NCBI GenBank assembly: GCA_032251275.1
Contig: JAVVEF010000001.1
Span: 46,891-110,890 of the forward strand
DNA from: Lutibacter sp.
GTDB lineage: Bacteria > Bacteroidota > Bacteroidia > Flavobacteriales > Flavobacteriaceae
Length of the DNA: 64,000 bases
Direction of reading: 5' to 3'
Below are positions 47,498-64,000 of this stretch, piece by piece; position 1 is the stretch's first letter, and each line of letters starts with the position of its first letter. The position numbers and the translations under genes were made by a program. The notes below the pieces were generated by a model that searched no databases, was not told the DNA's origin, and was given only the letters and a program-made list of their open reading frames with translations.

Positions 47498-48274
47498 TTA
47501 TAATTCTTTCTTCTGATTTAAAAGATTGTCAATTTTAGTTTCTAAACGATCTATTTTTTTTTCTAAATCTTCATTATTATCACTTACCATTGCGTCAACA
47601 AATATAGAATTCACTAATGAAAGTCCTAAAATTCCTCCACTAAGAACTACAAAAATGAAATAAATAAATGTAAAAAAAGAATTTATTGATGAAAGACCTT
47701 CAGTAACTTTTTCGGGAATTTCAAACCAACCTTCAACAGTAAATATTTTGAAAATGGAATATAACGAAATTATAGGGTTACCAAAATATTCTGGAGAACT
47801 ATCCTTAAATAAATAAAATGAAAATATACCAATTATAAAAATATAAACAATAAATCCAAGCAAAACTATAATTGAAGCTTTAAGCGCTCGATTTACACCT
47901 CTAATCAAATTGTCAATGCCTGGAATAAATTTTAAAAATCTGAATGACTTAAAAACTCTCATAACTCTAAATACAAGTAAAAAACTTAAATCGCTAATTT
48001 CAACGGAAAACGCAAATGTTATTAGTGCTGGAATTGAAAGTAAAATAAGTACAAAATCAAATTTATTCCAATTTGAAATAAAGTAATTTTTACCATATTC
48101 ATTTAGTTTTATAAGTAACTCACAAATGAAAAGAATAGTTATTGTATGATCAACTAATGATAAAATAAAGTCATTTCTGCTTCCATTATCAAAACCGCCA
48201 ACAAAAATATTCACCGAATTTAAAATGATTAAAAACAGAATAAAATTATCATTAAGAAATAATTTTTTTATCAT
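47498..48274 (-). CDS. Voltage-gated cation channel, BacNav/NaChBac superfamily (ion transporter)
   Basis: Six TM helices; WN.FDF in S3, S4 FRVMRVFKSFRFLK, pore FTVEGWFE, S6 G.L..SLVN and C-terminal coiled coil. Confidence 0.92.
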   Translation of the reverse strand: MIKKLFLNDNFILFLIILNSVNIFVGGFDNGSRNDFILSLVDHTITILFICELLIKLNEYGKNYFISNWNKFDFVLILLSIPALITFAFSVEISDLSFLLVFRVMRVFKSFRFLKFIPGIDNLIRGVNRALKASIIVLLGFIVYIFIIGIFSFYLFKDSSPEYFGNPIISLYSIFKIFTVEGWFEIPEKVTEGLSSINSFFTFIYFIFVVLSGGILGLSLVNSIFVDAMVSDNNEDLEKKIDRLETKIDNLLNQKKEL

Positions 48275-48375
48275 AAATTTAATAAAATGGTCATCATTTG
48301 ATAATTACTTTTCGTGATCATAACATTTGTGTGTAAACCTGAAAATATTGGTTGATATGGTTTTATTAATCAGCA

Positions 48376-50220
48376 TTATTTACTCAATGCTTTTAAAATG
48401 CGTTCCTCATTAATCAAGATATCACGAAATAATACGTGAGGAAATTCCTGGTATTTTGACGTTTTAAATGAATCAAATATATGTGATAGCGTTGAAGCGG
48501 AAATTAATGATAAATTCATTTCGGTGTCCATTTCACAATCGGTCACAAAGTCATCACTAAATTCTGGAGCAACCAGTAATATTTTTACAATTCTCAAATT
48601 ATTTTTTAAAGCTAAATTTTGATATGATTTTAATTGTCTTGAAACAGCACTGAACTTATTATAGCCCTTTTCTTTGCTGGTTTTGCACTCAACAATAATA
48701 ACTTCGTTGTTTCCAAGATTTAGCAGAATATCAATCATATCTTTATTTGTATTCAATTGATTTTTAAATTTTTCGTCCACATTAAATCCTAAACCTTTAA
48801 AAATTAATTTGGTTAGCTCTTCAAATTTTAAACCTATCTCACTTTCTTTTATTGAAATTCCGTTCTCTTTTAATAAGTTTAAATTTCGATAGCCAACATT
48901 TTCATAATTCTCCAAATATAAATTTTCAACATCTTTATAATGTTCTAATATGTTGAAAAGGTCATCGCCTCGTTGCTTTATCCCATTATCTTTTATGAAT
49001 TTTGAGATGTCTTCTTTAATTATTAAATCCAAAATATCTCTTGGTTTGATATTATAATCAAGCAGAAAACTGGCCTTTAAAACATATTCATCTTCAAGTT
49101 CATAATGGTCTTTTAGTTGTTTGTTTAAATTTGGTAGCGATTGGTTAAGTTCTGTTAACAATTTTTCAAAACCATCAAGTGAAATGCCAACTTTTTCATC
49201 TTTTTCAACATTTTCAAAATATTCTATTAAGCTGTTAATTTTGTCTTCTAAGGTATTTCCTTTTAAGTTATTTATATTTAGTCCTTTTTCACAAAGTTCG
49301 TTTAGTGTTTTTTTCTTTTCAGATATTGTAATTCCATCTTTGTAAATTTCAGACGCAAGTAAGCTTCTAAACGAAACACCTTCTTTAATGATTTCTTCAA
49401 TTTTTTCAGAATAGGATAATTTTCTGTCAATATTGTGGTTTTTTGCAATTTGATTTATTATTGGCTCTCTTAATAATTTTAATGTTCTTCTACTGAATTT
49501 TTCAGCAACTTCTTTTTTTCTTATTTTTCTTAAAAGCCTAACCATTTCATCCGCAACATAAATTGTACTGTCTTTTTTTGTGTAAAAAATAACACCGATG
49601 TTTTTTAAGCTATTAATTAGATCGTGTATATCTAATTTTTTAATTGGCAGAATTGTGTAATTAATTAGTTTAATTTCTTCTTGTGATAGACCGAGCTCTT
49701 TTGAAAGCGTTAAAATTATGGATAGCTCATCTGAAGTTATTTTTGATTCTCGATTGTTTGCTACATCATTTTTATACGCTGTTGTTAAACACGATTTGTA
49801 AATTCTATAATCGCGTTTTCTCTCAGCACTTAATTCCGATTTTTCATTTTCGAACTCAATATTTAGAAATTTAATTTTTGTGTTTAAATTCTTAATTTCC
49901 TTTTCGTATAATCTTGAAAACCAATCTTGCTTCATTATACAGTTCCCATCACGAATAATAATATCTATTAATATATCTAATTGTGATGTAACTTCTTGAA
50001 ATTCACATTCAATTTGTTTTGAAAAGTCGTTTGAAGTTAGTTCAAAAATATTTGCAACATTTTGATTATCAACAGATTTTAAGCCTTTGTCAACTGATAT
50101 TAAAATTTTTTCTATTTCTTTAATGTTTTTTGGATTTTTTGAAATGATATTGTCAATAATTTTAATAAATGAATTTTTCTCAAGTGAGCCCAGTTTGTCT
50201 AATATCTTTTCTAATTTCAT
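48376..50220 (-). CDS. Hypothetical protein with TerB-like segment and C-terminal PD-(D/E)XK (Mrr-like) nuclease domain
   Basis: KITSDELSIILTLSKELGLSQEE; C-terminal KFEELT...MIDILL...IIVECKT...RQLKSY. Confidence 0.7.
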   Translation of the reverse strand: MKLEKILDKLGSLEKNSFIKIIDNIISKNPKNIKEIEKILISVDKGLKSVDNQNVANIFELTSNDFSKQIECEFQEVTSQLDILIDIIIRDGNCIMKQDWFSRLYEKEIKNLNTKIKFLNIEFENEKSELSAERKRDYRIYKSCLTTAYKNDVANNRESKITSDELSIILTLSKELGLSQEEIKLINYTILPIKKLDIHDLINSLKNIGVIFYTKKDSTIYVADEMVRLLRKIRKKEVAEKFSRRTLKLLREPIINQIAKNHNIDRKLSYSEKIEEIIKEGVSFRSLLASEIYKDGITISEKKKTLNELCEKGLNINNLKGNTLEDKINSLIEYFENVEKDEKVGISLDGFEKLLTELNQSLPNLNKQLKDHYELEDEYVLKASFLLDYNIKPRDILDLIIKEDISKFIKDNGIKQRGDDLFNILEHYKDVENLYLENYENVGYRNLNLLKENGISIKESEIGLKFEELTKLIFKGLGFNVDEKFKNQLNTNKDMIDILLNLGNNEVIIVECKTSKEKGYNKFSAVSRQLKSYQNLALKNNLRIVKILLVAPEFSDDFVTDCEMDTEMNLSLISASTLSHIFDSFKTSKYQEFPHVLFRDILINEERILKALSK

Positions 50221-56762: not shown

Positions 56763-57176
56763 ATGAGAAAAAGTCTGAACATATTACTGGTTGAAGATGA
56801 TATGATAGAAATTATGAAATTTAACAGAACAATTTCAAAATTGGCGTATCTCCATAATATTATAGAAGCTAAAAATGGTGAAGAAGCTTTGGAAATTTTA
56901 TACAACAGTGAATCGTTGCCCGATCTTATTTTGCTCGACTTAAATATGCCTAAAATAAATGGCCTTGAATTTTTAAGCATCATCAGAAATAATGCGCATT
57001 TAAAATATATTCCAACCGTTATTTTAACTTCATCAAGCGACCATAAAGATGTTACAGAATGCCACCAGCTTGGCATTGCTGGTTATTTGGTAAAACCTTT
57101 AAAATTCAGCGATTATTCTGAATCCATTAAAACAGTGCTGGATTACTGGTGTTTTAATGAATTTGTAGAAGCTTAA
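56763..57176 (+). CDS. Single-domain response regulator (Rcp1-like)
   Basis: LLVEDD, LLDLNMPKINGLEFL, VILTSS and YLVKP. Confidence 0.93.
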   Translation: MRKSLNILLVEDDMIEIMKFNRTISKLAYLHNIIEAKNGEEALEILYNSESLPDLILLDLNMPKINGLEFLSIIRNNAHLKYIPTVILTSSSDHKDVTECHQLGIAGYLVKPLKFSDYSESIKTVLDYWCFNEFVEA

Positions 57177-57187
57177 GGTTTAACACC

Positions 57188-57895
57188 ATGTCTCAAAAAG
57201 AACAATTACTTCAAAAATTAAAATATCAAAATGAGCAGTTGGATGACTATGCGCATTTGGTTTCGCACGATTTAAAATCATCGTTAAGAAGCCTTTCGGC
57301 TTTGTTAAGCTGGGTGAAAGAGGATTGTATCGAAAAAAGTGGTAAAGAAAGTGTAGGAAATTTAAACTTGATGGAGGCGAAAATTGAAAAGATGGACAAG
57401 TTTTTAGAAGACATTATTAATTACTCTGAGATTGGCGCTACAAGTCTAAAAACTACGACCATCGATCTGAATAAAAAGGTGTCCAAAATAATAGAAAGCC
57501 TTCATATTCCCCAAAATATTAGCATCGTTGTAAAAGGCGATTTGCCTGTTTTAAAAGGGGATGCAAGACGATTGCGCCAGGTTTTTCAGAACTTAATCAG
57601 CAATGCCGTTAATTTCAATGATAAAGAAAATGGTTTGATTGAAATTGGGGTTGAAGAGGCTGAAGATTTTTATACTTTTTCAATTAAAGACAATGGGCAG
57701 GGAATTCCGCAGGAATATCACGAAAAAATATTTAACACTTTTACCACGCTTGGATATCAGGAGAAATCTACCGGGATGGGACTTTCCATCGTAAAAAGGG
57801 TTTTAGACCTTTATGGTGGTGAAATTTGGGTGGAAAGTGAAGTTTCAAATGGAAGTACATTTTATTTTACCATTTCAAAAAAAGATAATCAATAA
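57188..57895 (+). CDS. Histidine kinase core lacking a sensor domain
   Basis: SHDLKSSLR, QVFQNLISNAVNF, DNGQGIP and TGMGLSIVKR; only about 25 residues precede the H-box. Confidence 0.88.
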   Translation: MSQKEQLLQKLKYQNEQLDDYAHLVSHDLKSSLRSLSALLSWVKEDCIEKSGKESVGNLNLMEAKIEKMDKFLEDIINYSEIGATSLKTTTIDLNKKVSKIIESLHIPQNISIVVKGDLPVLKGDARRLRQVFQNLISNAVNFNDKENGLIEIGVEEAEDFYTFSIKDNGQGIPQEYHEKIFNTFTTLGYQEKSTGMGLSIVKRVLDLYGGEIWVESEVSNGSTFYFTISKKDNQ

Positions 57896-57967
57896 AGCAT
57901 TGATTTTGTTGATAAATTGATATAGAAAATGGGTATATTTACGGTTTAAAACAAACAAAAAACGCCT

Positions 57968-58684
57968 ATGAATTGTATTGTTATTGATGATGATGAAATT
58001 GTAAGAGTTATTATTGAAAAGTTAATTTCGAAAAATACAAATTTAGATCTGGTATCCAGTTTCAACAATCCTATTGAAGCGCTTAAATATTTAAACCAAA
58101 ACAGTGTCGATCTTATTTTTTTAGACATTTATATGCCTGCTTTTACAGGTTTTGATTTACTGCAAACCTTAAAGAATCCTCCTAAAGTAATTTTAATCAG
58201 TTCTAGCTCAAATTTTGCTTTGGAAGCTTTTGAATACAATTGCGTGGTAGATTATTTGGAAAAACCAATTTCCCAGGTGCGATTGGACAAAGCTGTTGAA
58301 AAGGCTAAATTATTTTCCGATACCAAAAATTTGCTTCCTGTTTTTCCAATAATAACAGCTGTAAATGAGTCTAAAACCGAATTGTACGTTAACATTTTTA
58401 AACGTCTGGTAAAAATTAATTATGACAGCATCAATTTAATTGAAGCAAAAGGCGATTATATTCTGATTAAAACCGACAAAGAAAATTACACGGTGCACTC
58501 AACCCTTAAAAAAATTGAAGAAAAATTGCCCGAAAGGCTATTTTTAAAAGTGCACAGGTCTTATATCATCAACATTAATAAGATTGTTGATATTGAAGAT
58601 AGTAGTGTACTTATTGGGAAAAATGTAGTTCCCGTAAGCAGGTCGAGCAAACCGGAATTAATCAAACGCCTAAATTTACTGTAA
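57968..58684 (+). CDS. LytTR-family response regulator
   Basis: REC IFLDIYMP...YLEKP; LytTR FLKVHRSYIIN. Confidence 0.95.
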   Translation: MNCIVIDDDEIVRVIIEKLISKNTNLDLVSSFNNPIEALKYLNQNSVDLIFLDIYMPAFTGFDLLQTLKNPPKVILISSSSNFALEAFEYNCVVDYLEKPISQVRLDKAVEKAKLFSDTKNLLPVFPIITAVNESKTELYVNIFKRLVKINYDSINLIEAKGDYILIKTDKENYTVHSTLKKIEEKLPERLFLKVHRSYIININKIVDIEDSSVLIGKNVVPVSRSSKPELIKRLNLL

Positions 58685-58735: not shown

Positions 58736-59518
58736 ATGAAAAAATCCTTACTGTTTCTTTTATTATTTTTGAGTTTTCAGATCTCAAATGCCGGTGTTGT
58801 CATCCTTAATGGCTTAACACATGTGCATCAATCGGCTTCCGGACAATTAATCACCGGAGTCATCAGTTTAAAAAACACCGATGCAACAGAGCAACGCGTT
58901 ATTATCTATTTCAATGATTTGTTTCAAGAATGCGGCAGTGAAACAGTTTTAACGGCGAACAACAGTCATAAAAATTCTATCAAAAACTGGTTGTCCACCA
59001 ATGTCAACGAACACGTTTTTCAGGCAAACGAAGCCTATGAACTTATTTACACCATCAATGTGCCCAATGATGTTGAAATTGACGGTTCTTATTGGGGCGT
59101 TTTAATGGTTGAAATTGAAAAACCAATAAAAGAAGATGAATTGGAATTTGGCGTAAAATTGGAATCAAAGGTAAGATATGGCATTCAAATTATTGCTGAC
59201 ATTAATGAAAGAACACCTTCAGAACTTGAATTTTATGACATTAAAATTGAAGAACCTGACGGAAATAAACTGATAAATGTTGATTTAAAAAATTTAGGAA
59301 CATTTTATGTAGAGCCAACCTTAATTCTTGAAGTATTTAATGCCAACGGGGAACAGGCAAAAAAAGTGGAAGTTAAATTTAAAAAAGTGTATCCAAATTC
59401 CTGTAAATCATTTTCGCTTGATATTTCAGGCTTGCCAAAAGGCGCTTATTCTACGGTATTAATAGCCGATTATGGCAAAAATATTTATTCCATTGATTTG
59501 GAATTTGAAAATAAATAG
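58736..59518 (+). CDS. Secreted two-Ig-domain protein, fimbrial-chaperone/DUF916-like
   Basis: Signal peptide; W...Y.INVP...GSYWGVLMVE...RYGIQI, then KNLGTFYVEP second domain. Confidence 0.6.
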   Translation: MKKSLLFLLLFLSFQISNAGVVILNGLTHVHQSASGQLITGVISLKNTDATEQRVIIYFNDLFQECGSETVLTANNSHKNSIKNWLSTNVNEHVFQANEAYELIYTINVPNDVEIDGSYWGVLMVEIEKPIKEDELEFGVKLESKVRYGIQIIADINERTPSELEFYDIKIEEPDGNKLINVDLKNLGTFYVEPTLILEVFNANGEQAKKVEVKFKKVYPNSCKSFSLDISGLPKGAYSTVLIADYGKNIYSIDLEFENK

Positions 59519-59569
59519 CCACAACATATATAATGACTATAAAAAATACTGTCTTTTTTCAGTTTTAAT

Positions 59570-62296
59570 TTGAGAAATTTTTCCGAAATAACAACATTAA
59601 CCTATTTTTTTCTTTTAATATTGATCTTATTTTCAATGACAAAAGTTGAAGCACAACATAGTGTTGTTGAAATTTCTGCAAAAAATATCCCAGAAAATTT
59701 AGTTCCCGGAAAAAATTATACCATCGCTTTCGAAATTTCAAATACCACCGGCAATCCGTTGAATTTAAGCAGTGAGTTTATGGTTTCAGACCAGTTTTAT
59801 CTGACTACAAACCTAAAAAAGTTGGAGGTTGCCGCAAATAACAAAAAAATTGTGCTGTTTACTTTTGGCATCAATAGCCATTGCGCAGCCGGCGCTTACA
59901 CAGCATTGCTGAAAATTACAAATACCAATAGCAATGTGCCAATTGCTTCTCAGGAAATAGCGCTTAGCGTGTCTAAATTATACAATTTAACTGTTGAGGT
60001 TTTAAATTCACCTGAATATTTGCGGCTTGAGAAAGAATATTATTGTGAATATTTAGTGACAAATAATGGGAACAGTGAAGAGAAAATAATTTTTGAATCG
60101 AGCAATGCGCTTAAAATAGTTCCGGAAAACGCGGTGTTAAAACCAGATTCTTCGATGGTTGTGGCTGTTTACCAGCAGGTTCCTGGAAATGTGCGCAGCA
60201 AAACCATGGTTTTGAATAACTTAAAGGCTTATCTCATTTCAAACGATTTAATGTTTTCAAATCGCGTGGCAATCACACTTTACCCAAACAACACCAAAAA
60301 ACCCGATTTGTACCACCGTTTCCCAGTTACCGTTTCCACTATTTTTAACTCATTAAAAGGTTTGGATACCTTGAATGTTTTTAAATTTAAGGTGAGCGGA
60401 CAAGGTTTTTTGGACAAGGGCAATGAACATTATTTAAATTTTGAATATTCCGGTCCCAGCCAAAGCGATATTGTGCGATTCGGCGATTATGAAAGGTACA
60501 GCCTGCTTTACAAAAACAAAAAAATAGAAGTTGTTGCAGGGCACGTAAATTTTTCGCTTTCCAATATTACCGAAACTTCGCGTTATGGAACCGGCGGAAT
60601 TTTAAGCTACGATTTTGGAAAAACTACCGCAACCGTATTTTACGTAAAACCACGTTTCACTAAACAAATCTCCGATTCGTATGGCGGTAAAATTTCTCAG
60701 GATTTATCGGATAAAGCGTATTTGGAAATGGGATTTATCAACAGGACGCTGTTTGAAGACAATGAAGAATTCAATTCCAAAATTTTTAACATCGCTTCTT
60801 TTTACACCCTTAACCGATTTAAAATGAATGGTGAAATTGCTTACGAAAGCAATTATAAAACGAACGGACTTGCCTATTCTTTGGAAGCCTATTTAAATTT
60901 AAAAAAGTGGGATTTTATCAATTCCGCGCAATATTCCGATAAAAATTATAAGGGCTATATCAGAAACAGCAAGCAATTGTTGTCGCTGGCAAATTACCGG
61001 TTCAGCAAAAAAATTGATATGCAAATAGGGGCGGAGTATCGTGCCATCAATCCGGTAAGAGACACCATTAATTACAGTTCGTCGCCAATAACCACCAAAT
61101 ATCAGGCGTACTTTAATTACAACATCAACAGAAATAACAAGATTAGGGTAGGAGGATATTACCGGAATAAGGAAGACCAGTTAAGTTTGCAGAACTATAA
61201 TTTTGAAGAAAAACTGGCAACGCTTTCATTTTATAGCCGGATGCCTTACAAATACGATTTAATGTGGCAAAATCGCATTGGAAAAACCATTAATTTCTTG
61301 GCAAACAGCACCGAGCCACAAAGCACGCTTTTTAGTTCCTTAAGTATTTCAGCAAATATTTTTAGAAATTTAATTGTTGGCGTTAATGGCGATTACCAGC
61401 AAAGCAACAAGCAATCCGCAGAAAATAAAGTAGTTAAAACATTTTATTACGGCGGAAATTTACGCTACAATTTAAAATCGTACTTAAATGTGAGTGCCTT
61501 TTACAAAAAAAATTACGATTTTGATGAGTTGGATGAAGCCCAAAATTATTTACAGGCGCAAGTAAATTATAACTACCAAAGAAAACATTTGTTGAGCCTG
61601 GCAGTTTCACAAACGAGTTTGCCGGTTTTCCCCATCAAAAAGGAACTTTTAATTACGGCATCTTACAGTTTTGTGGTGAATGCGCCTATTTCAAAAAATA
61701 AAACGGTAGGCTCTTTAATCGGTAAAATTACATCCGATGAAAAAGTTAATTTAGAAGGGATTCTTGTGTTGTTGGATGAGCATATTGCCATTACCAATGA
61801 AAAAGGCGTTTTCCATTTCTACAATCTAATACCCAAAACCTATCGTTTGTACGTGAAACAATCGAGTTTGCCAAAAAATAAAATTATTGTGATGCAACAG
61901 CCAATTGACATCGATATTGTCCCAAATAAAGAAACCGAAGTGGTACTTGAAATGGGAAATACAGGCACTTTATTTGGACAAATTATTTTTGAGGAAACAA
62001 CAGTGATGCAATCTTCAAAATTCATCAAAAAATTGCCTATTTTGGTGGTGAAAATTACCAAAGAGGACAAAACCTATTATACCAAAACCGACAAAGACGG
62101 CAAATTTTGGTTTAAAGAATTGACACCCGGCGATTGGACGGTAGAGTTGGTTGTCAGAAATTTACTGAACGATTTTACTTTTAGTGAAACGCAAAAAACA
62201 ATTGTTGTGCTGTCAAATGAAGAATTGAAGGCTCTTTTTAAAGCCACCAACAAAAATAGGGAAGTTAAAAAAAGCGATAAAATATTTAAATTATGA
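59570..62296 (+). CDS. Large secreted protein, putative usher-like outer-membrane protein
   Basis: Signal peptide, two N-terminal Ig-like repeats, about 500 aa of amphipathic beta strands, and two C-terminal TNEKGVFHF/TDKDGKFWF beta-sandwich domains. Confidence 0.55.
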   Translation: MRNFSEITTLTYFFLLILILFSMTKVEAQHSVVEISAKNIPENLVPGKNYTIAFEISNTTGNPLNLSSEFMVSDQFYLTTNLKKLEVAANNKKIVLFTFGINSHCAAGAYTALLKITNTNSNVPIASQEIALSVSKLYNLTVEVLNSPEYLRLEKEYYCEYLVTNNGNSEEKIIFESSNALKIVPENAVLKPDSSMVVAVYQQVPGNVRSKTMVLNNLKAYLISNDLMFSNRVAITLYPNNTKKPDLYHRFPVTVSTIFNSLKGLDTLNVFKFKVSGQGFLDKGNEHYLNFEYSGPSQSDIVRFGDYERYSLLYKNKKIEVVAGHVNFSLSNITETSRYGTGGILSYDFGKTTATVFYVKPRFTKQISDSYGGKISQDLSDKAYLEMGFINRTLFEDNEEFNSKIFNIASFYTLNRFKMNGEIAYESNYKTNGLAYSLEAYLNLKKWDFINSAQYSDKNYKGYIRNSKQLLSLANYRFSKKIDMQIGAEYRAINPVRDTINYSSSPITTKYQAYFNYNINRNNKIRVGGYYRNKEDQLSLQNYNFEEKLATLSFYSRMPYKYDLMWQNRIGKTINFLANSTEPQSTLFSSLSISANIFRNLIVGVNGDYQQSNKQSAENKVVKTFYYGGNLRYNLKSYLNVSAFYKKNYDFDELDEAQNYLQAQVNYNYQRKHLLSLAVSQTSLPVFPIKKELLITASYSFVVNAPISKNKTVGSLIGKITSDEKVNLEGILVLLDEHIAITNEKGVFHFYNLIPKTYRLYVKQSSLPKNKIIVMQQPIDIDIVPNKETEVVLEMGNTGTLFGQIIFEETTVMQSSKFIKKLPILVVKITKEDKTYYTKTDKDGKFWFKELTPGDWTVELVVRNLLNDFTFSETQKTIVVLSNEELKALFKATNKNREVKKSDKIFKL

Positions 62297-62835
62297 AGCA
62301 ACTAATTTTCATCCTATGCGGATTGTGTGCGATTTCAAGTTATGCTCAAGTTACAGAAAGTGTTACTGCTTCATTTACCTTAAATGAAGTGGCAATGTTG
62401 GATCTAGAGCCCAGCAATTCAACGGTTACGCTAAATTTATCTTCTGCTATTGAAGCAGGTGAAATGGCTACTGTTGAAACGACGAATAACGACCAATGGA
62501 TTAATTTTTCATCGGCTGTTTTTGAAAATACCTCCAGAAGTATTTCTATTAATATTGATGGGCAAGTTCCTTCGGGAATTAATTTAATATTGAGTACTTC
62601 AAAATATACAGGTAATGGCAAAGGTGCGTTGGGTGAGCCCGTCGGTAATGGGATCCTGACATTAAACAACACCCTGCAAACAGTAATTTCCAATATTAGA
62701 GGCGCTTATACCGGAGATGGCATCAATAACGGATATAAACTTACTTATTCATTGGAAATTTACGATTATAAATTACTGGACTTCAACCAAACGGCAACTT
62801 TGTCTATTACTTTAACTTTAACCGATTCTATATGA
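62293..62835 (+). CDS. Secreted all-beta protein, putative pilin-like subunit
   Basis: Signal peptide, N-terminal alternating strand VTASFTLNEVAMLDL and C-terminal strand LSITLTLTD; ATGA overlap with the upstream gene. Confidence 0.5.
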   Translation: MKQLIFILCGLCAISSYAQVTESVTASFTLNEVAMLDLEPSNSTVTLNLSSAIEAGEMATVETTNNDQWINFSSAVFENTSRSISINIDGQVPSGINLILSTSKYTGNGKGALGEPVGNGILTLNNTLQTVISNIRGAYTGDGINNGYKLTYSLEIYDYKLLDFNQTATLSITLTLTDSI

Positions 62836-63350
62836 AAAAATTAATTTTTATGTGCTTTTTAGCAATTTCTAATAATTTGTTTTGTCAAGGTAATGGAAAC
62901 GGAGATAGTTTTACTGTTACTGTCATTAATGGTAATATGGCTAATATTACTATTCCAATAAATGACATAACCGAAGCTGGGAATGACTATTATAATAAGG
63001 ACTATGAAAGTGATTTAGGTTCTCAGACTGAAATATTGATAAGTTCAACTTTCCAAAATCAACTATTTACTGTTATAATTAATAGAGGAGATGATGATCC
63101 TGCTTGGCCCTTAGGTTTCCCAGATCTGGATCTTCAAATGAAAGTATCTTCCAGTTCAAGTCTAATATCACCAGGATATCAACCATTTAAATCAATCCCA
63201 TATAACAACGGAAGTCTAAGTCAATTTAGTTTCGATATTGGAGGCAACAAAATAAACCAGATGATAGTCGATTATAAAATTAAGGGTATAAGTGTGCTGC
63301 TACCAGTTAATACCTATAAAACCACCATTTTTTTTACAATAATGATGTGA
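62832..63350 (+). CDS. Secreted all-beta protein, putative minor pilin/WxL-like subunit
   Basis: Signal peptide and C-terminal VDYKI...NTYKTTIFFTIM strand; ATGA overlap. Confidence 0.45.
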   Translation: MKKLIFMCFLAISNNLFCQGNGNGDSFTVTVINGNMANITIPINDITEAGNDYYNKDYESDLGSQTEILISSTFQNQLFTVIINRGDDDPAWPLGFPDLDLQMKVSSSSSLISPGYQPFKSIPYNNGSLSQFSFDIGGNKINQMIVDYKIKGISVLLPVNTYKTTIFFTIMM

Positions 63351-63411: not shown

Positions 63412-64000
63412 ATGCCCGTAAAAATACTTTTTATTGAAGAAAATGGCACAAAGCAAGAAGCCCTAAAATTGTGTCTTACACAAGACACAGGCATTCAATA
63501 TAACATCATCGCGGATTTTAGGGAATTGGATGCAGCTTTAAATTCTGGGACTTACACGCATTTGGTTGTACAATCTGTTGTTAACAATGAGTCTGTTTTG
63601 GCATTTGGCGACTTTATGAAACTGCCTTTACTGGTTGTAAATGATGCCGGGTTGGATTTGTCGGGAACTTCTTATGCAAGCACAAAATCACCCTTGACAT
63701 ATTCGGCATTGTTTGATTTTTTGGTGGAAAGCACGCCAGTTTCTTATGCATCTATGGAAGAATACGCGATGGATGACCAGGAGTTTTTTGATCAATTAAA
63801 AGGATTGATGGTGGATGAATTCAAGCTTAATTTTGAGGAAATTCCGGCATTGATTGAAAACAAAAATTTGGCGGAATTAAAAAGCAGGGCGCACCAATTG
63901 GGCAGCAAATTTGCAATGCTCGATTTGCCTTTGTCTGCACTCCTATGCAAAGAAGTTGATGTCAATATTTTAAATGATGCCGAACCCCAACTGCAAAATA
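63412..64000 (+). CDS. Degenerate receiver + Hpt domain protein (runs off the window end)
   Basis: Not in the ORF track. Hand translation MPVKILFIEENG...YAMDDQEFFDQLKGLMVDEF...ELKSRAHQLGSKFAMLDL; open to 64000. Confidence 0.75.
   Translation, partial: MPVKILFIEENGTKQEALKLCLTQDTGIQYNIIADFRELDAALNSGTYTHLVVQSVVNNESVLAFGDFMKLPLLVVNDAGLDLSGTSYASTKSPLTYSALFDFLVESTPVSYASMEEYAMDDQEFFDQLKGLMVDEFKLNFEEIPALIENKNLAELKSRAHQLGSKFAMLDLPLSALLCKEVDVNILNDAEPQLQN

What the first reader, a model, noticed from the sequence alone, without database searches (positions are those of the whole stretch)
58736..63350. Chaperone-usher-like (or diderm WxL/Csc-like) surface-fibre locus in a Bacteroidetes
Seen: four co-directional secreted proteins, the last three translationally coupled. 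They are a two-Ig-domain 260-aa protein; a 908-aa protein with N-terminal Ig domains, a long amphipathic beta region and two C-terminal beta-sandwiches, with no terminal Phe; and two 170-180-aa all-beta proteins with alternating N-terminal strands. None has a lipobox or a T9SS C-terminal signal. Known: that size and topology set matches chaperone + usher + pilins of alternate (ECP/CFA-I-like) chaperone-usher systems, and the first protein also recalls DUF916 partners of WxL proteins. The characterised Bacteroidetes pili are lipoprotein-derived type V. Inference: an uncharacterised fimbrial assembly pathway. No obvious major pilin gene lies upstream, so 62293-62835 may be the major subunit.
Basis: inference. 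Interest (0 to 1): 0.76.

Follow-up and report, generated by a model that had tools for sequence, protein, structure and literature searches.

The report
Usher-like surface-assembly operon in Lutibacter
A four-gene operon in a Lutibacter (Flavobacteriaceae) genome, conserved across Bacteroidota and unannotated in the libraries searched, combines a relative of a Gram-positive surface-protein partner, a large usher-shaped outer-membrane barrel and small fast-evolving secreted proteins. It is probably an undescribed machine for putting a fibre or protein complex on the cell surface.

Summary
The four co-directional genes are real. All four proteins have signal peptides, and the last three genes overlap by 4 nt. 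The set (A 260 aa, B 908 aa, C 180 aa, D 172 aa) is conserved in order in about 70 of 80 fetched Bacteroidota loci. The B family has 2,445 clusters at 50% identity.

A is not a PapD-type chaperone. It is a soluble homologue of the Firmicute WxL-interacting protein (DUF916+DUF3324) and lacks that protein's membrane anchor. B models confidently as two N-terminal Ig domains, a barrel of about 26 strands with no plug insertion, and two C-terminal sandwiches. Its best PDB match is the usher FimD, but with low TM-scores and no sequence match to ushers.

C and D are distant paralogues from families absent from Pfam and NCBIfam. C-like proteins carry a conserved alternating-hydrophobic N-terminal segment that AlphaFold leaves unfolded. 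C is not the major subunit. A second C-like class (C') sits upstream of A in most genomes and, in close relatives, just past the window end. D is a hypervariable cassette.

Best reading: an analogue of chaperone-usher assembly built from different parts (confidence 0.5). Polymerisation is inferred, not shown.

The parts
56763..57176 (+). Stand-alone response-regulator receiver (context, likely regulator of the operon)
   Evidence: Pfam Response_reg E 6.8e-23. Response regulators flank the locus in 43 of 80 related loci.
57188..57895 (+). Soluble histidine kinase (HisKA + HATPase_c)
   Evidence: Pfam HATPase_c E 4e-28, HisKA weak.
57968..58684 (+). LytTR-type response regulator, 51 nt upstream of gene A
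   Evidence: Pfam Response_reg E 3.7e-18 and LytTR E 1.6e-20.
58736..59518 (+). A: secreted, unanchored two-domain WxLIP-like protein (DUF916-like + DUF3324-like); candidate periplasmic chaperone or adaptor
   Evidence: Signal peptide ends ...SNA|GVV. Across two scans of A relatives (the window protein is in both), 27 hit WxLIP_HBD (best 4.9e-12) and 11 hit WxLIP_PGBD. hhalign against 5 real Firmicute WxLIPs gives prob 95.9%, E 5.4e-9, 226 columns over both domains. No C-terminal TM helix. No PapD hit.
59570..62296 (+). B: outer-membrane protein with usher-like architecture (whole gene)
   Evidence: AF2 mean pLDDT 79.9, barrel blocks 85-96. Foldseek best PDB hit FimD 3rfz_E, E 9e-14. The family has 2,445 50%-identity clusters, nearly all about 900 aa.
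59657..60244 (+). B residues 30-225: two N-terminal Ig-like (CARDB-like) domains, inferred periplasmic
   Evidence: AF2 strands 33-134 and 140-222. Weak CARDB / Ig_VWA7 hits. A relative carries 4 LysM domains fused N-terminally.
60308..61705 (+). B residues 247-712: barrel of about 26 strands, no plug-sized insertion; the last strand ends in SYSF (beta-signal-like)
   Evidence: 26 consecutive strands in DSSP of the AF2 model. Y699 is conserved in at least 95% of 73 relatives.
61706..62269 (+). B residues 713-900: two paralogous transthyretin-like (CarboxypepD_reg) domains
   Evidence: Pfam CarboxypepD_reg E 3.7e-9. hhalign CT1 vs CT2 prob 96.6%.
62293..62835 (+). C: small all-beta secreted subunit of the conserved 'post-B' class
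   Evidence: AF2 pLDDT 83.8, ten strands. No Pfam, NCBIfam or PDB sequence match. 71 orthologues sit directly after B, and none has the H-x-phi-x-phi-x-phi-P motif.
62347..62388 (+). C residues 19-32: mature N-terminal segment with alternating hydrophobics; candidate donor strand
   Evidence: Unstructured in the AF2 model, pLDDT 58-67. Positions 26, 28 and 30 are 97-100% hydrophobic; P31 is present in 149 of 171.
62832..63350 (+). D: small secreted protein, distant paralogue of C, last gene of the core
   Evidence: hhalign of mature C vs D: prob 88.5%, E 2.7e-6. Present in 68 of 80 loci directly after C.
62860..63273 (+). Hypervariable core of D
   Evidence: No blastn match to five collinear Lutibacter loci whose flanks are 74-86% identical. 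Median protein identity in 12 close loci: A 91, B 85, C 66, D 36%.
63412..64000 (+). Start of a conserved downstream gene (weak Hpt-like in the L001 orthologue), cut by the window end
   Evidence: Collinear with L001 12502-13235 at 84% nt identity. The L001 orthologue hits Pfam Hpt at E 2.3e-4, below cutoff. In L001 two C' genes follow it.

Best explanation
The operon encodes a Sec-dependent, two-step surface-assembly pathway that works like a chaperone-usher system but is built from different protein families.

Shown: all four proteins carry signal peptides. A is a soluble, unanchored homologue of the Firmicute WxL-interacting protein. B is an outer-membrane barrel of about 26 strands, flanked by two N-terminal Ig domains and two C-terminal transthyretin-like domains. 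C and D are related small beta proteins. C-like proteins share a conserved amphipathic N-terminal segment that lies outside the modelled fold. The gene set and order are conserved across Bacteroidota.

Inferred: in the periplasm A caps C, D and C' subunits by strand complementation, as published AF2 models predict for WxLIP with WxL. B docks A-subunit complexes on its periplasmic domains and passes folded subunits through its wide barrel. The subunits join head-to-tail by donating their N-terminal strand. Hypervariable D would sit at the exposed distal end, C would be an adaptor, and the multi-copy C' class would form the shaft. C' is encoded beyond this window. Expression is probably controlled by the flanking LytTR-type two-component genes.
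For: Gene set and order A-B-C-D are conserved, with C' next to A in 55 loci. A is homologous to WxLIP over both domains. WxLIP is reported to complete the WxL sandwich with a donated strand in AF2 models (PMC10599100), and a WxL + WxLIP complex entry exists in the PDB (9i25). B's model is confident and FimD is its best PDB hit. A LysM fusion in one relative places B's N-terminus in the periplasm. C-like proteins have a strictly alternating hydrophobic N-terminal segment followed by Pro, which AF2 leaves unfolded. The weak top of C's fold-match list is enriched in donor-strand pilins: CfaB, FimF/G/A, PapE, CsuA/B, the Pyrobaculum bundling pilin and Ena3A. Evolutionary rate rises in the order A, B, C, D, and D is a cassette-like hypervariable gene, as expected for exposed distal parts.
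Against: No polymer, complex or contact was modelled or observed, and the tools gave no coordinates or multimer predictions. C's fold matches are all non-significant (best E 0.047, TM 0.3-0.4). B has no plug insertion, no Usher Pfam hit, and only TM 0.28-0.40 to FimD. LptD, MtrB, TonB-dependent receptors and AlgE also match it. A shows no similarity to PapD chaperones, and C/D show none to WxL domains, so the WxLIP-WxL analogy is being transferred to a different client fold. The window itself has no C' gene.
Confidence: 0.5

Rival explanations
1. A non-fibrous cell-surface complex, the diderm counterpart of the Firmicute WxL/Csc cluster. B exports or anchors a small hetero-oligomer of C', C and D (possibly with A) on the outer membrane, for adhesion or substrate binding, without polymerisation.
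For: A is a true WxLIP homologue, and WxL clusters form surface complexes rather than pili (PMC10599100, PMC1534035). D and C are fast-evolving, as surface-exposed binders would be. No significant pilin fold match.
Against: C and D have no detectable WxL similarity. A has lost the membrane anchor that tethers WxLIP. The multi-copy C' class and the conserved amphipathic N-terminal segment fit a repeating polymer better.
Confidence: 0.25
2. B is a secretion pore or transporter whose cargo is released. The small proteins are soluble secreted effectors or binding proteins, or B moves a non-protein substrate and A, C and D are periplasmic accessories or barrel plugs, as LptE is for LptD.
For: The 26-strand barrels LptD and MtrB, both of which house a partner protein, are among B's fold matches. 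B has no plug of its own. Two-component control is common for uptake and export systems.
Against: FimD ranks above LptD and MtrB. Fixed co-linearity with 2-5 paralogous small secreted proteins, one of them hypervariable, is unusual for a solute transporter. No enzyme or inner-membrane transporter gene is conserved in the neighbourhood.
Confidence: 0.15
3. A true but extremely divergent branch of the chaperone-usher superfamily: B descends from ushers and has lost its plug, and the chaperone was replaced by a WxLIP-type protein.
For: FimD and PapC are the best full-length fold matches, and the domain order matches (N-terminal domain, barrel, two C-terminal sandwiches). The operon order is the same.
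Against: No Usher or PapD Pfam hit in any member tested. Different strand count and no plug. hhalign of B against five E. coli ushers gave prob 1%, but the positive control (EcpC vs classical ushers) also failed, so this test has no power.
Confidence: 0.1

Closest known systems
Chaperone-usher pili (classical Fim/Pap, alternate CFA/I, archaic Csu; ECP)
   Same: Sec-exported small beta subunits with an amphipathic N-terminal segment. A two-Ig-domain periplasmic partner. A large outer-membrane barrel with N-terminal and two C-terminal periplasmic sandwich domains. The order subunit-chaperone-usher-minor subunits in relatives. FimD is B's best PDB fold match.
   Different: A is not PapD-like. B has no Usher-family sequence signal, about 26 rather than 24 strands, and no plug domain. 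The subunits are about 160-aa, ten-strand folds with no significant pilin match. No two-domain tip adhesin. Restricted to Bacteroidota among the loci fetched.
WxL / Csc cell-surface clusters of Firmicutes (WxLIP = DUF916+DUF3324, small and large WxL proteins, LPXTG protein)
   Same: A is homologous to WxLIP across both domains (hhalign 95.9%; Pfam hits to both halves). It is clustered with several small secreted beta proteins. WxLIP is predicted to donate a strand to its client (PMC10599100).
   Different: A has no transmembrane anchor. C and D are not WxL domains (prob below 2%). No LPXTG or large multidomain WxL protein. An outer-membrane barrel is added. The organism is diderm.
Type V pili of Bacteroidota (FimA/Mfa1)
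   Same: Same phylum. Surface fibres assembled by strand exchange of beta-sandwich subunits.
   Different: Type V pilins are lipoprotein precursors processed by a protease and have no usher-like barrel or periplasmic chaperone. Here there is no lipobox and no FimA/Mfa Pfam hit. The type V features come from established knowledge, not from a test made here.
Donor-strand fibres without an usher (TasA, archaeal bundling pili, Ena)
   Same: The P. calidifontis bundling pilin (7ueg) is C's top, non-significant, fold match and Ena3A is fourth.
   Different: E 0.047 and TM 0.31. No camelysin/TasA or Ena Pfam hit. Those systems lack an outer-membrane translocator.
26-strand barrels LptD and MtrB
   Same: Similar strand number. 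MtrB gives the highest target-normalised TM among the full-length matches (0.45).
   Different: Different flanking domains, partners and gene context. No sequence similarity detected.

Membership tests
Chaperone-usher pathway | PapD-like periplasmic chaperone (Pfam PapD_N / PapD_C) | tested here: not met
   Neither Pfam scan of A relatives (36 and 64 members) listed a PapD family among the matches; they hit WxLIP domains instead. hhalign against 6 E. coli chaperones gave prob 1%, but that test is weak.
Chaperone-usher pathway | Usher-family outer-membrane protein by sequence (Pfam Usher) | tested here: not met
   No Usher hit for B at E<=1 or for 8 relatives at E<=1e-3. hhalign against 5 ushers gave prob 1%, but the EcpC positive control also failed.
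Chaperone-usher pathway | Usher architecture: N-terminal domain, 24-strand barrel with an inserted plug, two C-terminal domains | tested here: inconclusive
   Domain order matches and FimD is the best PDB hit (E 9e-14). However TM is 0.28-0.40, there are about 26 strands, and no plug-sized insertion.
Chaperone-usher pathway | Subunits with an incomplete Ig fold completed by a donated N-terminal strand | tested here: inconclusive
   A conserved alternating N-terminal segment is left unfolded by AF2. No groove or multimer could be examined, and pilin fold matches are non-significant.
Chaperone-usher pathway | Operon order: major subunit, chaperone, usher, minor subunits | tested here: met
   C' lies directly upstream of A in 55 loci and C-D directly after B in about 70. 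In this window C' is absent; relatives carry it past the window end.
WxL / Csc cluster | WxLIP protein: DUF916 + DUF3324 domains | tested here: met
   hhalign prob 95.9%, E 5.4e-9, over both domains. Pfam HBD best 4.9e-12, PGBD best 8.5e-6.
WxL / Csc cluster | C-terminal transmembrane anchor of WxLIP | tested here: not met
   A ends at residue 260 directly after the second domain (...DLEFENK). This is the same in all aligned relatives.
WxL / Csc cluster | WxL-domain proteins in the cluster | tested here: not met
   hhalign of C and D against a profile of 9 real WxL domains gave prob 0.6% and 1.8%. No WxL Pfam hit in 39 C-like proteins. 9i25_A (WxL) is not among C's top 50 fold hits.
Type V pili (FimA/Mfa1) | Lipoprotein precursor (lipobox Cys) and FimA/Mfa-family fold | tested here: not met
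   No conserved Cys at the cleavage site; Gln is at +1 instead. No FimA/Mfa Pfam hits.
T9SS cargo | C-terminal sorting domain (Por_Secre_tail / TIGR04183) | tested here: not met
   Only sub-threshold hits inside A's DUF3324-like domain (14.5 bits against a cutoff of 27; best 8.2e-4 among relatives). None in B, C or D.

The most novel reading that the evidence does not exclude
This is a new class of outer-membrane fibre-assembly pathway, specific to and widespread in non-Bacteroidales Bacteroidota. A WxLIP-type periplasmic chaperone and a plug-less barrel of about 26 strands polymerise a novel pilin fold by donor-strand exchange. That would link the enigmatic Gram-positive WxL clusters and Gram-negative chaperone-usher pili as two outcomes of one strand-complementation principle.
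Probability: 0.35. Interest if true: 0.9.

Novelty: new variant of a known kind. Interest (0 to 1): 0.72.

Why it matters
Bacteroidota are known for type V pili and T9SS-dependent adhesins, and no usher-type pathway turned up for them in the literature searched here. This locus is common in environmental Flavobacteriales, Cytophagales, Saprospiraceae and Sphingobacteriales. The B family alone has at least 2,445 clusters at 50% identity, and every named member looked up is 'hypothetical protein' or carries only a generic domain-based name. If it builds a surface fibre, it would add a new assembly class. It would also give the poorly understood WxLIP family a concrete biochemical role as a strand-donating chaperone, and it would identify a hypervariable, probably exposed protein (D) relevant to adhesion or phage recognition in aquatic and soil bacteria. 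Even if the product is not fibrous, B is a new family of very large outer-membrane barrels with a defined set of clients.

Tried and rejected
- Sequence searches of A, C and D families against PDB chains gave nothing significant.
- NCBIfam has no model for any of the four families, including distant members.
- C or D as a WxL domain was rejected by profile-profile comparison with real WxL proteins fetched from Firmicute plasmids.
- hhalign of B, A and C against E. coli ushers, chaperones and pilins was all negative. The positive controls (EcpC, EcpB and EcpA against classical families) were also negative, so the test is uninformative.
- B's Ig domains against A or WxLIP gave only weak, generic Ig-like scores (prob 14-46%) and are not counted as homology.
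- A fused-chain AF2 'pseudo-multimer' was considered and dropped. The tool returns no coordinates or contacts, so interfaces could not be read.
- The promoter/terminator scan gave counts equal to shuffled sequence.
- The search for sequencing runs found only low-share metagenomic DNA runs (groundwater, runoff) and no RNA, so expression was not examined.
- Literature searches for a diderm or Bacteroidota version found nothing.
- C as the major subunit was rejected on the class analysis.
Full report
OBSERVATION. All are on the + strand. B/C and C/D overlap by 4 nt, and A and B are 51 nt apart. Each protein starts with a signal peptide. B, C and D have Gln at the predicted +1 position, and Q19 is present in 166 of 171 C-like proteins. 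That fits the Gln(+1) preference of signal peptidase I substrates in Bacteroidota, which I cite from my own knowledge. No canonical lipobox is present. The only T9SS-tail signal is a sub-threshold hit inside A's second domain. Names attached to close homologues place the window in Lutibacter, Flavobacteriaceae. Directly upstream on the same strand lie a receiver protein, a histidine kinase and a LytTR response regulator.

CONSERVATION. A pattern scan of one genome per species with the A family found 197 loci. The best 80 are all Bacteroidota: Lutibacter, Chryseobacterium, Dyadobacter, Runella, Arcicella, Telluribacter, Algoriphagus, Saprospiraceae and others. I clustered all ORFs of these loci. 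A occurs in 77 loci, B in 73, D in 68, and C-like proteins in 75 loci with 169 copies, always co-directional and in the order A-B-C-D. The only other recurrent neighbours are response regulators (43 loci), LytS-type kinases (15 loci) and, in Lutibacter-type loci, a weakly Hpt-like gene directly after D. A profile of the B family against 1.84 billion representative proteins found 2,445 clusters at E<=1e-3 and 624 at E<=1e-30. Almost all are full-length and about 900 aa. Of the ten listed clusters I looked up, five had named members, all from Flavobacteriaceae, Flavobacterium, Mariniflexile or Sphingobacterium. Their names are 'hypothetical protein' or generic domain-based labels such as 'SpaA isopeptide-forming pilin-related protein'. 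Pfam covers only B's C-terminal domains. NCBIfam covers nothing.

PROTEIN A. In two Pfam scans of A relatives (36 and 64 members, with the window protein in both), 27 hit WxLIP_HBD (DUF3324, best E 4.9e-12) and 11 hit WxLIP_PGBD (DUF916, best 8.5e-6). None hits PapD domains. I fetched real WxL clusters from Enterococcus, Listeria, Bacillus and Lactiplantibacillus plasmids. A profile of 5 WxLIPs aligns with the A-family profile at hhalign probability 95.9%, E 5.4e-9, over 226 columns spanning both domains in order. Cross-controls (A vs WxL, C vs WxLIP) score below 1%. A therefore is a WxLIP homologue. It ends directly after the second domain, so it lacks the WxLIP membrane anchor and should be a soluble periplasmic protein. 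Hassan et al. (PMC10599100) describe WxLIP as two perpendicular Ig-like domains. Their AF2 models have a hairpin strand from DUF916 inserting into the WxL domain to complete its sandwich. The PDB holds EfmWxLIP1 alone (9i1y) and together with a WxL protein (9i25). This gives A a mechanistic precedent that resembles chaperone donor-strand complementation without any relation to PapD.

PROTEIN B. The AF2 model has mean pLDDT 79.9, with barrel blocks mostly at 85-96. It shows a signal helix and two Ig-like domains (residues 33-134 and 140-222). A low-confidence linker follows, then 26 consecutive long strands (248-709) with only short connections. Two beta-sandwiches close the chain (714-794 and 799-894). 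These two sandwiches match CarboxypepD_reg and are paralogous to each other (hhalign 96.6%). No insertion is large enough to be an usher-type plug. The last barrel strand ends in SYSF, with Y699 conserved in at least 95% of 73 relatives, so the lack of a C-terminal Phe on the whole protein is irrelevant. Foldseek against the PDB ranks FimD first (3rfz_E, E 9e-14) and also finds PapC (1e-8). TM-scores are only 0.28-0.40, and LptD, MtrB, TonB-dependent receptors and AlgE also match. One relative carries four LysM peptidoglycan-binding domains fused to its N-terminus. That places the N-terminal side in the periplasm, and with an even strand number the C-terminal domains lie there too. In summary, B has usher-like architecture but no demonstrable membership of the usher family.

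PROTEINS C AND D. Neither has a Pfam, NCBIfam or PDB sequence match. They are distant paralogues: hhalign on the mature parts gives 88.5%, E 2.7e-6. They share a TEAG motif and a T-x-(Y/F)-T-(L/V) C-terminal strand. C's AF2 model (pLDDT 83.8) is a ten-strand all-beta fold. Residues 19-32 of the mature N-terminus are left unstructured. Across 171 C-like proteins this segment has a strict pattern. Positions 26, 28 and 30 are 97-100% hydrophobic and the intervening positions are polar. Pro follows at position 31 in 149 of 171, and then comes the most conserved strand, V-A-L-L-D-L-E. Foldseek finds no significant match (best E 0.047). The weak top of the list is nevertheless dominated by donor-strand fibre subunits: the Pyrobaculum bundling pilin, CfaB, FimF/G/A, PapE, CsuA/B and Ena3A. 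C and D do not resemble WxL domains by profile (prob below 2%), and the solved WxL chain is not among C's top 50 fold hits.

TWO CLASSES OF C-LIKE PROTEINS. Labelling C-like genes by position separates them cleanly. The 71 genes directly after B, including the window's C, never carry the motif H-x-phi-x-phi-x-phi-P. Of the 100 genes elsewhere, 91 do; these lie upstream of A, between A and B, or further up or down. Nearest neighbours from other loci fall almost always in the same class. The window's C is therefore the conserved 'post-B' subunit, not the likely major subunit. The other class, C', occurs in 1-4 copies per locus and lies next to A in 55 loci. That gives the fim-like order subunit, chaperone-like protein, usher-like protein, minor subunits. 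In Lutibacter relatives C' genes lie 1.1 and 2.2 kb downstream of D. The window is collinear with those loci up to its last base, so its C' genes most probably lie just beyond position 64000.

VARIABILITY. Among 12 close loci, median protein identity to the window is A 91%, B 85%, C 66% and D 36%. At the DNA level the window matches L001, L002, L003, L008 and L009 at 74-86% on both sides. Positions 62860-63273, the body of D, have no blastn match at all. D behaves like a replaceable cassette, which suggests an exposed and selected surface.

MECHANISM. The shown and inferred steps are listed under Best explanation. The parallels with chaperone-usher assembly are architectural and contextual. 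The link to WxLIP is by homology. Polymerisation, strand exchange and the roles I assign to C', C and D are inference. I give the fibre-assembly reading 0.5, a non-fibrous surface complex 0.25, a release pore or transporter 0.15, and true but very divergent usher ancestry for B 0.1.

LIMITS. My hhalign tests against E. coli chaperone-usher components lack power, because EcpA, EcpB and EcpC also failed to match the classical families. The start codon of B is uncertain. Many homologues are called 18-22 residues shorter, but only the long form has a plausible signal peptide. The literature library returned no paper on a diderm version. That shows absence from the library searched, not that the system has never been described.

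Noticed in passing
window 62860-63273 (body of gene D): About 410 bp with no nucleotide similarity to five otherwise collinear Lutibacter loci (flanks 74-86% identical). D proteins are only about 36% identical where A is about 91%. It looks like allelic cassette replacement or strong diversifying selection.
   Followed up: partly
A residues C66 and C223 (window 58931-58933 and 59402-59404): One nearly invariant Cys in each of A's two domains across about 100 relatives. This could be an inter-domain disulfide in a periplasmic protein. The mature N-terminus V-V-x-L-N-G-L-T-H-x-H is the most conserved motif of the family.
   Followed up: no
B, C, D signal-peptide cleavage sites (e.g. window 62347-62349): Gln at +1 after the predicted signal peptidase I site in B, C and D (166 of 171 C-like proteins). 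This fits the Bacteroidota 'Q-rule' of pyroglutamate N-termini.
   Followed up: partly
protein P0284 (B-family relative, 1222 aa): Four LysM domains are fused to the N-terminus of a B-like protein. Other relatives (1,300-1,390 aa) carry long unannotated N-terminal extensions.
   Followed up: partly
L058 and L074 (same Arcticibacterium MAG): Two separate complete loci in one genome, so the system can be multi-copy.
   Followed up: no
window 56763-58684 and 63412-64000: The operon is bracketed by signalling genes: a receiver, a soluble histidine kinase and a LytTR regulator upstream, and a weakly Hpt-like gene downstream. This suggests a dedicated phosphorelay.
   Followed up: partly
window 48001-50000: G+C drops to 26% against 31-39% elsewhere, over a 614-aa ORF on the minus strand (48376-50220). 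Not examined.
   Followed up: no
window 59570-59640 (start of B): Most database homologues of B are annotated 16-22 residues shorter (886-890 aa), which would remove most of the signal peptide. These are probably mis-called starts in the public annotations.
   Followed up: partly
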